From NCBI RefSeq assembly GCF_009931435.1, contig NZ_CP043414.1: a stretch of DNA of 64,000 bases; one strand, written 5' to 3'. Of the stretch, positions 48,001 through 54,000 are shown in pieces. Made by a program: the position numbers. Position 1 is the stretch's first letter. The number at the start of each line of letters is the position of its first letter. Source of the DNA: Escherichia coli. GTDB taxonomy: Bacteria > Pseudomonadota > Gammaproteobacteria > Enterobacterales > Enterobacteriaceae.

Positions 48001-51000
48001 TTCGATTTCACGATACCAGCGTGGATGGTGTTTCTTCGCCCAACGACGGCTCACCTTCCCTTCGATCATCCCTTTAATCGACCCTTTCACCCAGAATGCC
48101 ATATACATATGGATCAGGATGGCGTGGATCAGGATGATACCCGCAGCCGCGTGAATAAACAGGCTATAACGGACAACCTGTATCGGGAAGTACTGCGCAA
48201 AGTACGGACGCCAGATAATCACCCCGGTTACCAGCAGCACGAAAATCATGCTCATGATCGACCAGAACATCATCTTTTGCCCGGCGTTGTACTTACCAAC
48301 ATCCGCCACTTTGTGTTCATTGCCTTTTAATACTTCGACAATGTTCAACAGCCACGGAATATCTTTCTTATCCGGGATGTTGTGATGCACAAAACGCACA
48401 AACATAAACATCAGCGCGACGAAAATCGCAATGCCGAAGAACGGGTGCAAAATGCGTCCCATCTGCGGCGTACCGAAGGTTTGTGTCAGCCATTGCAGCG
48501 TCGGGAAGAAGAACGAAATCCCGGACAGCGCTACCAGGAAGAAGCAAATCACCACGGTCCAGTGACAGGCGCGATCAATAAACTTGGTGCGCACAATCAT
48601 TTTCGACTTACTCATGATGATCCTCCTCGTCATCGTCCACTTCCTTATTCGGGCCAATACCGATGTAGTGGAAAATTAACCCGGCAAAAGTGGCGATAAA
48701 GCCAGCCGCTGCCAGCGGTTTCAACGCGCCTTTCCACAGATTTACCGATGTATCGATCTTCGGATCTTTCGGCAGACCGTGATACAGCTCCGGCTGATCG
48801 GCGTGATGCAGCACGTACATGACGTGCGTACCACCGACCCCTTCCGGATTGTAGACACCAGCATGTTCGTAACCACGCGCTTTCAGTTTCGCCACGCGCT
48901 GTTCCGCCAGCTCCAGCATCTCCTTCTTGGTGCCGAAGTGGATAGCCCCGGTCGGACAAGTTTTCACACAAGCCGGTTCCTGACCAACGCTGACGCGATC
49001 GACGCAGAGTGTGCATTTATATACCCGGTTATCCTCTTTGTTGAGGCGTGGAATATTAAACGGACACCCGGCAATGCAGTAACCACAGCCGATGCAGTTT
49101 TCCGACTGGAAATCGACAATCCCGTTAGCGTACTGAATGATCGCACCAGCAGACGGGCACGCCTTCAGGCAGCCCGGATCTTCACAGTGCATACAACCGT
49201 CTTTACGGATCAGCCACTCCAGCTTGCCGTTCTGTTCGGTTTCGCTAAAGCGCATCACCGTCCAGGACTTGGCGCTCAGATCGGCGGGGTTATCATAAAC
49301 CCCGACGCAGTGCCCCACTTCATCACGGATATCGTTCCACTCCGAACACGCCACCTGACAGGCTTTACAGCCGATACAGGTGGAAACGTCGATAAGTTTC
49401 GCGACTTCTGCTTTGTAATCACGCACCTGAGAAGGCGGCGTGATGGAGTTAGTTGCGGACCTTTTGATAATGTCCTGCGTTTCCATAGCCATCTGTTCGC
49501 CCCCTTACGCCTTCTCGATGTTGACTAAGAACGCTTTATATTCCGGCGTTTGCGAGTTTGCATCACCGACATTCGGCGTCAGAGTGTTAGCGATATAACC
49601 TTTACGCGCGACACCCTCAAAGCCCCAGTGGATTGGAATACCCACCGTTTCAACCTGCTGACCGTTTACATTCAGTGGTTTCAGACGGCGCGTTACCACA
49701 GCCACCGCGCGGATAAAGCCACGCTTGCTGGAGACAGTGACACGATCGCCATTGGCAATGCCTTTCGCCGCCGCCAGCGTTTCGCTGATTTCCACAAACT
49801 GTTCCGGCTGAGCAATTGCGTTGAGCAACGCGTGCTTGGTCCAGGTGTGGAAGTGCTCGGTCAGACGGTAGGTCGTACCCACATACGGGAACTGCTCTTT
49901 TTTACCCATCCGCAGCGCGTCTTGTTCATACAGACGAACCACCGGGTTAGACACCACGTTCGGATGCAGCGGGTTAGTGCCCAGCGGCGTTTCAATTGGC
50001 TCGTAGTGTTCCGGGAACGGACCTTCCGCCATTTTGTTGATGGCAAACAGGCGTCCCATCCCTTCCGGCTGCATGATAAACGGCCCGGTTGGCGTACCCG
50101 GTGCGGCATTGCCGAAGTCCGGAATATCGTTACCCGTCCACTTGCTGCCGTTCCACTGGATCAGCATCCGTTTCGGATCCCAAGGTTTACCGTTGATATC
50201 CGCCGAAGCACGGTTGTACAGCACGCGACGGTTGAGCGGCCACGCCCAGGCCCATCCCAGCGTATTCCCCAGACCGGACGGGTCGGAGTTATCGCGGTTG
50301 GCCATCTGGTTGCCCTGCTCTGTCCAGCTACCGGTGTAGATCCAGCAAGAAGATGCGGTTGTACCGTCATCACGCAGATGCGCAAAGCTACTCAGCAACT
50401 GCCCTTTCTTCGCAATCAGTACGCCATTAGCGTCATAGAGATCTTCCAGCGCATAGCCGTTATTCTCTTTCGCCACTTCGTCAGACTGCGGTTCGTGCGG
50501 CTGCTTGTAGTTCCAGCTCATCTTCATCAGCGGTTCTACGCCTTTACCACCTTCGGCCTGGTACAGCTCGCGCAGATGATGGTAGATACCCGCCAGAATT
50601 TCGCCGTCATTACGCGCTTCGCCCGGCGCATCCTGACCTTTCCAGTGCCACTGCAACCAGCGACCGGAGTTAGCGATAGAACCATCTTCTTCGGCAAAGC
50701 AGGTCGAAGGCAGACGGAATACTTCAGTCTGAATAGACGCCGGATCGACATCGTTCGACTCGCCGTGGTTCTGCCAGAAGGTGGAGGTTTCAGTCACCAG
50801 CGGATCGATAACCACCATGTACTTCAGCTTGCTCAGGCAGCTCACCACTTTGTTTTTGTCCGGGAAGGACGCAACCGGGTTAAAGCCCTGGCAGAAATAA
50901 CCGGTGACTTTACCTTCATCCATCATGTTGAAATACTTGATGACGTCGTAGGTCTGGTCCCACTTGGGCAGCCAGTCGTAGCCCCAGTTGTTCTCTTTCT

Positions 51001-54000
51001 GCGCAGCATCGCCGTAGAAAGATTTCATCAGGCTAACGAAGAACTTCGGATAGTTGCTCCAGTAGTTCACCTGATCAGCCAGCGTCGCTTTCGGCGTGTT
51101 CGCTTCCAGATACGACTGCAAATCAACCTGTTTTTCTGACGGCAGCGTCAGATAACCCGGCAGGCTGGTAGAGAGCAGACCTAAGTCAGTCAGGCCCTGA
51201 ATGTTGGAGTGACCACGCAATGCGTTCACGCCGCCACCAGCCATACCCATGTTACCGAGCAGCAACTGGATCATCGCCATAGTACGGATGTTCTGCGCAC
51301 CCACGGTGTGTTGGGTCCAGCCCAGCGCGTACAGGAAGGTGGTTGTGCGATCCGGCGCGCTGGTGGAGGCCAGCACTTCACATACTTTCAGGAAGTCAGC
51401 TTTTGGCGTACCGCAGATGTTTTCTACTACGTCCGGCGTGTAACGGGAAACGTGCGCTTTCAGCAAGTTCCACACACAGCGCGGATGGGTCAGTGTTTCA
51501 TCGCGTTTCGCATAGCCATTTTCATCGAACTGATAGTTCCAGGACGACTTATCGTACTGACGTTTTTCAGCGTCATAACCGCTGAACAGGCCGTCTTCAA
51601 AAGTAAAATCATCACGCACCAGCAGGCTGGCGTTGGTGTAATGCTTAACGTATTCGGCGTTGATCTTGTTGTTTTCGATCAGGTAGCGCAAAACGCCAGA
51701 CAGGAACGTAATGTCCGTACCGGAACGAATAGGTGCGTAGATATCCGCCACAGAAGCGGTACGCGTAAAACGGGGATCGACAACGATCAAGGTTGCATCG
51801 TTGTTGTTTTTCGCTTCCATCGCCCAGCGAAAACCGACGGGATGCGCTTCAGCAGCGTTACCGCCCATCACCATTACGACGTTAGCGTTTTTGATATCCA
51901 CCCAGTGGTTGGTCATTGCACCGCGACCAAATGTTGGAGCAAGACTTGCTACCGTTGGTCCGTGTCAGACGCGCGCCTGGTTGTCTACCGCCAGCATCCC
52001 GAGGGAGCGGGCAAATTTCTGTGTCAGCATCCCGGTTTCGTTGCTGGCACCGGAAGCACACAGCATACCGGTAGAAAGCCAACGGTTTACCGTTACGCCC
52101 TGCTCATTCTTTTCAATAAAGTTAGCGTCACGGTCTGCCTTCATCAGCTTCGCAATGCGGGAGAATGCTTCTTCCCAGCTAATGCGCTGCCATTTGTCAG
52201 AACCTGGCGCACGATATTCCGGGTAGCGCAGACGGTTTTCGCTGTTGACGTAATCCAGCAATCCGGCCCCTTTCGGGCACAGCGCACCACGGCTTACCGG
52301 ATGATCCGGGTCACCTTCAATGTGATAAATCGCTTCTCTGGCGTTTTTCGCGCCATCACCCAGGCTATACATCAATAGCCCGCAACCTACGGAACAGTAT
52401 GTACAAGTGTTACGGATCTCTTTCGCGCGTAATAATTTGTAGTTTCGCGCCTGAGCCAGTGCTTGCTTCGGGGCAAAGCCCAATGCCGCGACTGTTGTTC
52501 CCGCCATACCGCCCGCGCAGATTTTAAAAAATTGTCTGCGACTGACGTCCATTGCTTTCCTCTTTTTTCAGGGGTATTACTGCGCGAGGAAACTAACAGT
52601 AAAATTCTGAATCTTTTTGCGCGAAATCAAAAAGAACAGCTGTTTGCCACAAAATAATCCGCCTGCGCAAATTGACCTACCTCAATAGCGGTAGAAAAAC
52701 GCACCACTGCCTGACAGGCCAGTTAAAAAAATGCTATAAAATTCAGCTTAATTTTTAACGGCAAGAGAGACAAAACAGCGAGCATGACACGACAAAAAGC
52801 AACGCTCATAGGGCTAATAGCGATCGTCCTGTGGAGCACAATGGTAGGATTGATTCGCGGTGTCAGTGAGGGGCTCGGCCCGGTCGGCGGCGCAGCTGCT
52901 ATCTATTCATTAAGCGGGCTGCTGTTAATCTTCACGGTTGGATTTCCGCGAATTCGGCAGATCCCGAAAGGCTATTTGCTCGCCGGGAGTCTGTTATTCG
53001 TCAGCTATGAAATCTGTCTGGCGCTTTCCTTAGGGTATGCGGCGAGCCGTCATCAGGCGATTGAAGTAGGTATGGTGAACTATCTATGGCCCAGTCTGAC
53101 AATTCTCTTTGCCATTCTGTTTAATGGTCAGAAAACCAACTGGCTGATTGTACCTGGATTATTATTAGCCCTGGTCGGTGTCTGTTGGGTGTTAGGCGGT
53201 GACAATGGGTTACACTATGATGAAATCATCAATAATATTACCACCAGTCCATTAAGTTATTTCCTGGCGTTCATTGGCGCTTTTATCTGGGCAGCCTATT
53301 GTACAGTAACGAATAAATACGCACGCGGATTTAACGGTATTACCGTTTTCGTCCTGCTGACAGGAGCAAGTTTGTGGGTTTACTATTTTTTAACGCCGCA
53401 ACCGGAGATGGTATTTAGCACACCCGTCATGATTAAACTCATCTCTGCGGCATTTACCTTAGGATTTGCTTACGCTGCGTGGAACGTTGGCATTTTACAT
53501 GGCAACGTCACCATTATGGCAGTAGGTTCGTATTTTACGCCCGTACTTTCGTCGGCGCTTGCTGCGGTACTGCTTAGTGCTCCGCTATCGTTCTCATTCT
53601 GGCAAGGCGCACTGATGGTCTGCGGCGGTTCCCTGCTCTGCTGGCTGGCGACACGTCGTGGATAAAATTATTGTCGGGTCATAGCACCCGGCAGTTAACC
53701 CGCTAAATTACGACAATAATAAAAAATAAATTTCAAATACCAGTAATTCACCTTATATCTCATTTCGACTTCGATCACATATCGACAAATAATATTATTT
53801 CATCTAGTATTCTCATTGTTTTTAATCACCATTCTATTTTAAAAACAGTATGTCATTTGTAAATGACGCCGTTTAAAATTCGTTTAGAAAATAGGTTTAA
53901 CGATAATTAAAAGGATACTGTTAAATGAAATTAAAAATAGTTGCGGTGGTTGTAACTGGTTTGTTAGCTGCGAACGTAGCACATGCTGCCGAAGTATATA

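What the first reader, a model, noticed from the sequence alone, without database searches (positions are those of the whole stretch)
49505..52552. fdnG is a selenoprotein: in-frame UGA at 51965..51967 with a downstream hairpin
The ORF track splits the gene into 195-aa and 803-aa pieces, but the pieces are in frame across a single TGA, and the translation across it (…ARV-U-HGPTV…) matches the known Sec site of formate dehydrogenase-N. An automated annotator would call this a pseudogene or two genes. The N-terminus carries a twin-arginine (Tat) motif.
Basis: partly seen in the sequence, partly recalled or inferred. Interest (0 to 1): 0.4.

Follow-up and report, generated by a model that had tools for sequence, protein, structure and literature searches.

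The report
E. coli fdnG selenocysteine codon and SECIS

Summary
Observation and interpretation are both confirmed, and both are textbook knowledge. On the minus strand, 52552..49505 is one 1015-codon reading frame with a single internal stop, TGA at 51967..51965 (codon 196), and no frameshift. The product has no amino-acid difference from the gene annotated as RefSeq WP_015953395.1. It differs at 5 of 1015 residues from K-12 FdnG and matches PDB 1KQF chain A end to end, with the UGA opposite that chain's residue 196, printed as X. Rfam's bacterial SECIS_3 model hits 51970..51912 at 83.8 bits (threshold 63) and is the only Rfam hit in the 64-kb window. An independent set of 86 distinct homologous sites from other bacteria shows compensatory changes in the apical helix. 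The bulged U and a loop U are invariant, and a loop G nearly so. fdnH and fdnI follow, and the locus is syntenic with the E. coli fdn locus (yddG-fdnGHI-yddM-adhP). Novelty: already known. Interest is very low. In passing: an 11.1-kb Tn1721-type tet(A) transposon is inserted in yddA (10880..22007).

The parts
49505..52552 (-). fdnG coding sequence (1015 codons + TAA), the catalytic alpha subunit of formate dehydrogenase-N
   Evidence: Single frame with one internal TGA. TIGR01553 1621 bits vs cut-off 814. Full-length match to 1KQF_A. Pfam Molybdop_Fe4S4, Molybdopterin and Molydop_binding domains.
51965..51967 (-). UGA codon 196, read as selenocysteine
   Evidence: In-frame TGA, aligned to X196 of 1KQF_A. 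Sec at position 196 was shown by mass spectrometry in E. coli FdnG (PMC3636253).
51912..51970 (-). Bacterial SECIS element within the coding sequence. It begins 3 nt before the UGA.
   Evidence: Rfam RF01989 SECIS_3, 83.8 bits vs gathering 63, E 1.3e-19, full model 1-59. Only Rfam hit in the window at gathering thresholds.
51936..51953 (-). Apical SECIS mini-helix GGUAGCAAGUCUUGCUCC: bulged U at 51951, loop GUC at 51945..51943. It starts 11 nt after the UGA and is the inferred SelB-binding part.
   Evidence: Helix 2: 95.9% of cells paired across 87 sequences and 4 of 7 pairs with compensatory changes. RNAalifold finds the 5-bp core on its own. U20 and U27 are invariant and G26 is at least 90% conserved. 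The SelB contact is from established knowledge and was not tested.
52454..52552 (-). Tat signal peptide region (codons 1-33), with the twin-arginine motif SRRQFFK at codons 4-10 (52543..52523)
   Evidence: Motif match. Literature: FdnG and FdoG carry typical Tat signal peptides (PMC10609526). Generic Tat HMMs are below threshold. The extent of 33 codons is from knowledge of K-12 FdnG and was not tested.
52277..52405 (-). Cys50-x2-Cys53-x3-Cys57-x34-Cys92, ligands of the [4Fe-4S] cluster in the alpha subunit
   Evidence: Motif found at residue 50. Pfam PF04879 covers residues 44-104. Ligand identity from PMC3636253.
48608..49492 (-). fdnH, the beta (four [4Fe-4S]) subunit. It starts 12 nt after the fdnG stop.
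   Evidence: TIGR01582 482 bits vs cut-off 335. 20 nt and 1 aa differences from K-12 fdnH.
47962..48615 (-). fdnI, the gamma (cytochrome b556) membrane subunit. It overlaps the fdnH end by 8 nt.
   Evidence: NF007558 (FDH-N gamma) 484 bits vs cut-off 339. The FDH-O gamma model NF007924 reaches only 268 bits vs 341. 217 aa, starting at the ATG at 48615.
52678..52693 (-). NarL/NarP 7-2-7 inverted heptamer pair TACCGCT-AT-TGAGGTA upstream of fdnG
   Evidence: Read from the sequence and identical in K-12. A 7-2-7 site is reported for fdnG (PMC2718512). The assignment to this exact sequence is from my knowledge of the Stewart-lab papers, not tested.
52617..52630 (-). FNR-like site TTGAT-TTCG-CGCAA
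   Evidence: Pattern match, identical in K-12. If it is centred at -42.5, as I recall from the literature, the heptamers fall at -109 and -100. This is inferred.
47736..47761 (-). Terminator-like hairpin with a T-run, about 200 nt after fdnI and between the converging fdnI and yddM
   Evidence: Consensus scan only. The number of such sites in the region is no higher than in shuffles, so this is weak.

Best explanation
The region is the fdnG gene of an Escherichia coli chromosome, first gene of the fdnGHI operon for nitrate-inducible formate dehydrogenase-N. Codon 196 is UGA. It is most likely decoded as selenocysteine rather than stop because the mRNA just downstream folds into a bacterial SECIS hairpin. 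The apical mini-helix (bulged U, G-U in the loop, starting 11 nt after the UGA) is the part known to bind elongation factor SelB. SelB delivers Sec-tRNA(Sec) to the ribosome when the UGA reaches the A site. The Sec residue, with His197 and Arg446, forms the formate-oxidising site at the Mo-bis-MGD cofactor. The alpha subunit carries a twin-arginine signal and is exported folded, with FdnH, to the periplasm. Electrons pass through the Fe-S clusters and the FdnI haems to menaquinone. Shown here: the reading frame, the identity of the gene, the SECIS match and its covariation, the catalytic and cluster residues, the operon partners and the synteny. Inferred from established knowledge of E. coli FDH-N: SelB binding, actual Sec insertion in this strain, Tat export, and regulation by NarL and FNR.
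For: - One frame with a single TGA at codon 196.
- RF01989 SECIS_3 scores 83.8 bits vs gathering 63 and is the only Rfam hit in the window.
- Across 87 homologous sites from diverse bacteria, 89.7% of cells pair in the Rfam structure, against 27-49% when partners are slid. The apical helix is 95.9% paired, and 4 of its 7 pairs show compensatory changes. RNAalifold recovers the apical helix independently.
- TIGR01553 scores 1621 bits. fdnH and fdnI equivalogs are above cut-off, while the FdoI model is below its cut-off.
- The full-length match to 1KQF_A has X at position 196.
- There is no aa difference from the gene annotated as WP_015953395.1, and 5 aa / 78 nt differences from K-12. 71 of those nt differences leave the amino acid unchanged, and they lie on both sides of the UGA.
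- C50/C53/C57/C92, H197, R446 and SRRQFFK are all present.
- Against the paralogue fdoG (74.4% nt identity overall), the longest identical run of the gene (53 nt) starts at codon 195. This points to a nucleotide-level constraint exactly at the SECIS.
- The gene order yddG-fdnGHI-yddM-adhP is the same as in K-12 and in the closest genome.
- Literature: Sec196 seen by mass spectrometry, and translation terminates at UGA196 without Sec-tRNA(Sec) (PMC3636253). The original demonstrations by Berg et al. 1991 are cited in PMC13188914.
Against: - Nothing substantive.
- Folding energy of the 66-nt segment is no better than shuffled sequence (z = -0.40), so thermodynamics alone does not support the hairpin.
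- In the E. coli sequence the lower stem fits the Rfam register imperfectly. A12.G44 and A8.C48 are mismatches (my reading of the sequence against the structure), and the MFE fold uses a shifted register.
- Generic Tat profile models are below threshold.
[quoted passage not shown] No tRNA gene was found in it.
Confidence: 0.98

Rival explanations
1. The TGA is a genuine stop: fdnG is a pseudogene, or two separate genes of 195 and 803 aa.
For: A plain ORF finder splits the gene. Without Sec-tRNA(Sec), translation does stop at this codon (PMC3636253).
Against: - A SECIS scoring above the Rfam threshold sits exactly at the UGA.
- Both halves are under purifying selection: 71 of 78 differences from K-12 leave the amino acid unchanged.
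- The same TGA is present in K-12 fdnG and fdoG and in 120 loci from other bacteria.
- The crystal structure 1KQF is a single 1015-residue chain.
- RefSeq annotates one CDS.
Confidence: 0.01
2. The gene is the paralogue fdoG (formate dehydrogenase-O), not fdnG.
For: FdoG is 77% identical in protein. It has the same Sec196 and, in K-12, a 60-nt SECIS identical to that of K-12 fdnG.
Against: - 97.4% nt identity to K-12 fdnG against 74.4% to fdoG.
- The gamma subunit passes the FDH-N model and fails the FDH-O model.
- The neighbours are yddG, yddM, adhP and narU/narZ rather than fdhD/fdhE.
- An upstream NarL 7-2-7 site is present.
Confidence: 0.01
3. The UGA is read through by a near-cognate tRNA (Trp or Cys) independently of the hairpin, and the apparent structure is only a by-product of a conserved peptide sequence.
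For: The peptide HGPTVASLAPTFGRG is highly conserved, so much of the nucleotide conservation could be coding constraint. The MFE z-score is not significant.
Against: - Compensatory changes occur at paired positions, including changes that alter the amino acids (A/S/G/V, L/G) while keeping the pairs.
- Third-codon-position identity between fdnG and fdoG is 95% in the 20 codons from 196, against 61% gene-wide at identical residues.
- Cysteine was never found at position 196 (PMC3636253).
Confidence: 0.005

Closest known systems
E. coli K-12 fdnG (b1474; FDH-N alpha subunit; PDB 1KQF/1KQG chain A)
   Same: Same gene. Same length (3048 nt), same UGA at codon 196, same operon (fdnGHI) and same neighbours. 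The SECIS has no difference inside the paired region. The 231-nt upstream intergenic region differs at 2 positions.
   Different: 78 nucleotide differences (97.44% identity) and 5 amino-acid differences: A317T, L342F, E366A, S666A, N933A. One synonymous change, G to A at +50 from the UGA, lies just 3' of the paired part of the SECIS.
E. coli fdoG (b3894; FDH-O alpha subunit)
   Same: Paralogue with Sec196, a Tat signal, and a 60-nt SECIS identical to that of K-12 fdnG. 77% aa identity.
   Different: 74.4% nt identity overall, different locus (next to fdhD/fdhE), and the gamma subunit belongs to a different NCBIfam equivalog.
E. coli fdhF SECIS (FDH-H; the reference bacterial SECIS)
   Same: UGA followed by 11 nt, then a mini-helix GG-U(bulge)-stem-loop containing G-U. 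Same V-U-H-G-P context.
   Different: Different stem sequence: UGCA/UGCA with loop GGUC, against AGCAA/UUGCU with loop GUC. The fdhF-type Rfam model SECIS_2 scores only 28.8 bits here against a threshold of 70. FdhF is cytoplasmic, has no Tat signal, and has Sec at codon 140.

Membership tests
Formate dehydrogenase-N alpha subunit (FdnG; NCBIfam TIGR01553 equivalog) | Full-length match above the curated equivalog cut-off | tested here: met
   1621.2 bits vs 814.2, residues 2-1014 on profile positions 1-1009
Formate dehydrogenase-N alpha subunit (FdnG; NCBIfam TIGR01553 equivalog) | In-frame UGA at the catalytic position, followed by His (U-H-x-P motif), and the catalytic Arg446 | tested here: met
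   UGA196-H197-G-P and R446. Aligned to X196 of 1KQF_A. UHxP motif listed for this family in PMC13188914.
Formate dehydrogenase-N alpha subunit (FdnG; NCBIfam TIGR01553 equivalog) | Four Cys ligands of the N-terminal [4Fe-4S] cluster, and the molybdopterin domains | tested here: met
   C50, C53, C57, C92 (PMC3636253). PF04879, PF00384 and PF01568 all above their cut-offs.
Formate dehydrogenase-N alpha subunit (FdnG; NCBIfam TIGR01553 equivalog) | Twin-arginine motif (S/T-R-R-x-F-L-K) at the N-terminus | tested here: met
   SRRQFFK at residues 4-10, followed by a hydrophobic stretch and ALA-QA
Formate dehydrogenase-N alpha subunit (FdnG; NCBIfam TIGR01553 equivalog) | Generic Tat signal profile models reach their thresholds | tested here: inconclusive
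   PF10518 12.4 bits vs 22.7; TIGR01409 11.7 bits vs 16.7. These are very short models. The same holds for K-12 FdnG, whose N-terminal sequence is identical (first aa difference at residue 317).
Formate dehydrogenase-N alpha subunit (FdnG; NCBIfam TIGR01553 equivalog) | FDH-N rather than FDH-O: operon partners fdnH and fdnI, and the fdn chromosomal context | tested here: met
   NF007558 (FDH-N gamma) 484 bits vs 339, while NF007924 (FDH-O gamma) 268 bits vs 341. Gene order yddG-fdnGHI-yddM-adhP. 97.4% nt identity to K-12 fdnG against 74.4% to fdoG.
Formate dehydrogenase-N alpha subunit (FdnG; NCBIfam TIGR01553 equivalog) | Selenium incorporated; formate:menaquinone oxidoreductase activity | not testable with these tools
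   Needs 75Se labelling, mass spectrometry or an enzyme assay on this strain. Shown for K-12 derivatives in PMC3636253.
Bacterial SECIS element (Rfam RF01989 SECIS_3) | Covariance-model score at or above the gathering score | tested here: met
   83.8 bits vs 63, E 1.3e-19, model positions 1-59 of 59
Bacterial SECIS element (Rfam RF01989 SECIS_3) | Located immediately 3' of an in-frame UGA, with the apical mini-helix starting 11 nt after it | tested here: met
   UGA at alignment columns 4-6 and helix from column 18. Same spacing in fdhF.
Bacterial SECIS element (Rfam RF01989 SECIS_3) | Apical stem-loop with a bulged U and G-U in the loop | tested here: met
   U20 and U27 invariant, G26 at least 90% conserved in 87 sequences. 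Their role as SelB contacts is from established knowledge.
Bacterial SECIS element (Rfam RF01989 SECIS_3) | Base pairs maintained by compensatory substitutions across species | tested here: met
   Apical helix: 4 of 7 pairs with changes on both sides, 95.9% paired. Whole structure: covariation score 0.227 vs at most 0.102 for slid partners, and 0 of 500 shuffles reach it. RNAalifold agrees on the apical helix. The lower helix is weaker (84.9% paired, 1 of 9 pairs compensatory).
Bacterial SECIS element (Rfam RF01989 SECIS_3) | Binding by SelB, and presence of selA, selB, selC and selD in the same genome | not testable with these tools
   These genes lie elsewhere on the E. coli chromosome. No tRNA gene was found in the window, and only this 64-kb window of the source genome is available.

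The most novel reading that the evidence does not exclude
The perfect nucleotide identity of the SECIS block between the paralogues fdnG and fdoG (60 nt identical in K-12; the longest identical run of the gene, 53 nt, in this strain, against 74% identity overall) might be kept by recurrent gene conversion between the two loci, rather than only by joint coding and RNA-structure selection. Also, in enterobacteria the lower SECIS stem uses a different pairing register from the Rfam consensus. Neither point is excluded or established by my data.
Probability: 0.1. Interest if true: 0.12.

Novelty: already known. Interest (0 to 1): 0.04.

Why it matters
It matters only as a quality check. The scan correctly recognised one of the three classical E. 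coli selenoprotein genes from raw sequence, and an ORF finder that treats UGA as a stop will split it. The biology has been established since 1991 to 2002: UGA196 read as selenocysteine, the requirement for the mRNA stem-loop, and the structure and role of FDH-N in the formate-nitrate redox loop. It adds nothing new here.

Tried and rejected
- **Folding energy as a SECIS test.** The 66-nt segment folds no better than shuffles (z = -0.40), so I dropped this criterion and used the covariance model and cross-species covariation instead.
- **Rfam SECIS_2 (fdhF type).** It scores only 28.8 bits against a threshold of 70. The element belongs to SECIS_3, not SECIS_2.
- **Generic Tat HMMs.** They are below threshold. 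The Tat claim therefore rests on the motif and on the literature.
- **Sigma-70 promoter scan.** No minus-strand promoter was found upstream of fdnG. I had expected this from my knowledge of FNR-dependent promoters. I located the NarL 7-2-7 and FNR-like sites by direct pattern search instead.
- **fdoG as the identity of the gene.** Considered and rejected.
- **Pseudogene or split gene.** Considered and rejected.
- **Database searches not run.** I did not run protein-database or structure-prediction searches, because the protein has no aa difference from a RefSeq-annotated gene and is nearly identical to a solved structure.
- **Lower stem in the Rfam register.** In E. coli it has mismatches at A12.G44 and A8.C48, and the MFE fold uses a shifted register. 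I did not resolve which register is used, and it does not affect the verdict.
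Full report
**1. Observation.** The minus strand of window 52552..49505 translates as 1015 codons followed by TAA. There is exactly one internal stop, TGA at 51967..51965, which is codon 196. A mechanical ORF list splits this into a 195-aa piece (51965..52552) and an 803-aa piece (49505..51916). The second piece only appears shorter because the ORF finder restarts at the next ATG (codon 213). The 16 codons in between are in frame. The local context is AVDNQARV-UGA-HGPTVASL.

**2. The hairpin.** Rfam's SECIS_3 covariance model (RF01989) matches 51970..51912 on the minus strand over its full length. It scores 83.8 bits against a gathering score of 63, E = 1.3e-19. A scan of the whole 64-kb window at gathering thresholds returns this hit and nothing else.

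Thermodynamics alone is uninformative. The MFE is -16.7 kcal/mol and the z-score is -0.40.

I therefore made an independent test. A plain DNA pattern for Q-A-R-V-UGA-H-G-P was scanned against one genome per species. These gave 86 distinct 63-nt segments, which align without gaps to the window.

- On this alignment the Rfam structure has 89.7% of cells paired, against 27-49% when the 3' partners are slid by 1-3 columns.
- The covariation score is 0.227, against at most 0.102 for slid partners, and no shuffle out of 500 reaches it.
- The apical helix (columns 18-25 with 29-35; window 51953..51936) is 95.9% paired. Four of its seven pairs show changes on both sides, for example pair 21-33 as G-C, A-U or C-G, and pair 24-30 as A-U, C-G or G-C.
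- RNAalifold, run without any prior structure, recovers the same 5-bp apical core with the same covarying pairs.
- The bulged U (column 20, window 51951) and the loop U (column 27) are invariant. The loop G (column 26) is at least 90% conserved.
- The mini-helix starts 11 nt after the UGA, the same spacing as in fdhF.

From established knowledge of the E. coli fdhF SECIS, the bulged U, the loop G-U and the 11-nt spacing are the determinants for SelB binding. That step is inferred, not tested.

The lower helix is less well supported: 84.9% paired and one compensatory pair. In E. coli it fits the Rfam register imperfectly, and the MFE fold uses a shifted register.

**3. A second line of evidence within E. 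coli.** The paralogue fdoG of K-12 is 74.4% identical in nucleotides to the window's fdnG, and third-codon positions at identical residues are only 61% identical. Yet the 20 codons starting at codon 196 are 98% identical, with 95% identity at third positions. The longest identical run of the whole gene, 53 nt, begins at codon 195. In K-12 the 60-nt SECIS segments of fdnG and fdoG are identical. Suppression of synonymous change at exactly this spot is what an RNA element embedded in a coding sequence predicts.

**4. Identity of the gene.**

- The product scores 1621 bits on the NCBIfam equivalog TIGR01553, formate dehydrogenase-N subunit alpha, against a cut-off of 814.
- It matches PDB 1KQF chain A over residues 1-1015, with the UGA opposite the X at position 196.
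- It has no amino-acid difference from the fdnG gene of E. coli MFDS1022581, annotated in RefSeq as WP_015953395.1. It differs from K-12 FdnG at five residues: A317T, L342F, E366A, S666A and N933A.
- At the nucleotide level it is 97.44% identical to K-12 fdnG. Of the 78 differences, 71 leave the amino acid unchanged, and they lie on both sides of the UGA. This rules out a decaying pseudogene.
- Cys50, Cys53, Cys57 and Cys92 (the [4Fe-4S] ligands), His197 and Arg446 are all present. The three expected Pfam domains are also present.
- Downstream lie fdnH (49492..48608; TIGR01582) and fdnI (48615..47962). fdnI passes the FDH-N gamma model (484 bits vs 339) but not the FDH-O gamma model (268 bits vs 341).
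- The neighbourhood is that of the fdn locus of K-12 and of the closest complete genome: narZ-narU, LRR genes, a porin, yddG, then fdnGHI, yddM, adhP, maeA.
- 5,425 of 5,426 complete E. coli genomes contain the region.

The gene is therefore fdnG and not fdoG.

**5. Signal peptide and regulation.** Residues 4-10 are SRRQFFK, followed by a hydrophobic stretch and ALA-QA. Generic Tat HMMs score below their thresholds, so the motif and the literature carry this point. FdnG and FdoG "contain typical Tat signal peptides" (PMC10609526).

The 231-nt yddG-fdnG intergenic region differs from K-12 at two positions only. It contains the inverted heptamers TACCGCT-AT-TGAGGTA (52693..52678) and an FNR-like TTGATTTCGCGCAA (52630..52617). 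A 7-2-7 NarL/NarP site is reported for fdnG (PMC2718512). Placing the FNR site at -42.5 puts the heptamers at -109 and -100, which agrees with my recollection of the Stewart-lab mapping. This is inference, not a test.

**6. Mechanism.** Shown here: a conserved SECIS hairpin directly after an in-frame UGA, at the catalytic position of a gene that is fdnG by every test available. Inferred from the literature: SelB bound to GTP and Sec-tRNA(Sec) binds the apical helix and delivers Sec at the UGA, and without Sec-tRNA(Sec) translation stops at codon 196 (PMC13188914; PMC3636253). Sec196 ligates Mo at the active site. The FdnGH dimer is exported by Tat and joins FdnI. The sel genes are not in the window, so whether this strain has them cannot be checked here.

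**7. Comparison with what is known.** All of this is textbook. Berg, Li, Heider and Stewart (1991) showed that UGA in fdnG encodes selenocysteine. Berg, Baron and Stewart (1991) showed that the mRNA stem-loop is essential. Both are cited in PMC13188914. Jormakka et al. (2002) solved the structure, 1KQF. Zorn et al. found Sec at position 196 by mass spectrometry and never cysteine (PMC3636253).

The two RefSeq records inspected show a single 3048-nt fdnG CDS, and all ten rows listed from the genome-wide search carry a named fdnG gene.

**8. Verdict.** Novelty: already known. Interest is about 0.04. The most novel reading left open is that the fdnG/fdoG SECIS identity is maintained by gene conversion. 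It is both unlikely and of small interest.

**9. In passing.**

- The window carries an 11,128-bp Tn1721-type transposon at 10880..22007. It has three 38-bp inverted repeats and encodes tet(A), tetR, an EamA-family transporter, a complete and a truncated Tn3-family transposase, a resolvase, and a methyl-accepting-chemotaxis-like protein.
- The transposon is inserted in yddA with a 5-bp AACTA target duplication. Removing it restores a 561-aa yddA. None of the 5,426 complete RefSeq E. coli genomes has this junction.
- The best identity of this part of the window to any of those genomes is 98.6-99.1%.

Noticed in passing
window 10880..22007: An 11,128-bp Tn1721-type (Tn3-family) transposon. It has three 38-bp inverted repeats (10880-10917, 16368-16405, 21970-22007). 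It carries tet(A) (within 14114..15388, -), tetR (15392..16069), an EamA-family transporter (13198..14082), a truncated and a full transposase, a resolvase and an MCP-like gene. It is inserted in the ABC-transporter gene yddA with a 5-bp AACTA duplication (10875-10879 and 22008-22012). Removing it restores a 561-aa yddA. The junction is absent from all 5,426 complete RefSeq E. coli genomes.
   Followed up: yes
window 51912..51970 vs L003 (K-12 fdoG): The paralogues fdnG and fdoG are 74.4% identical in nucleotides overall, but their 60-nt SECIS segments are identical in K-12. The longest identical run between the window's fdnG and K-12 fdoG (53 nt) starts at codon 195. This could reflect selection on the RNA or gene conversion; which one was not resolved.
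   Followed up: partly
window 51922..51964 (lower SECIS stem): In E. coli the lower stem does not fit the Rfam SECIS_3 register cleanly (A12.G44 and A8.C48 are mismatches). The MFE fold uses a register shifted by one, with a bulged G. In most other proteobacteria of alignment A1 the Rfam register pairs well.
   Followed up: partly
window 53925..57760: Between yddG and narU the window has an intact 366-aa porin (PF00267, 449 bits) and two genes of 419 and 416 aa. The second has clear leucine-rich repeats; the first has only sub-threshold LRR matches. In K-12 this interval holds only the remnants yddL (291 nt), yddK (957 nt) and the pseudogene yddJ. The LRR proteins match no NCBIfam model.
   Followed up: partly
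window 47171..47733: A 92-aa ORF lies directly upstream of yddM (HigA-type antitoxin, 47449..47733) and overlaps it by 1 nt. The corresponding gene in the closest genome is annotated as a RelE/ParE-family toxin. K-12 has only yddM here, with a 145-nt gap to adhP.
   Followed up: no
window 22100..52700: The best nucleotide identity of this chromosomal stretch to any of 5,426 complete RefSeq E. coli genomes is 98.6% (25 kb) to 99.1% (the fdnG region). The source strain therefore has no close relative in that collection.
   Followed up: no
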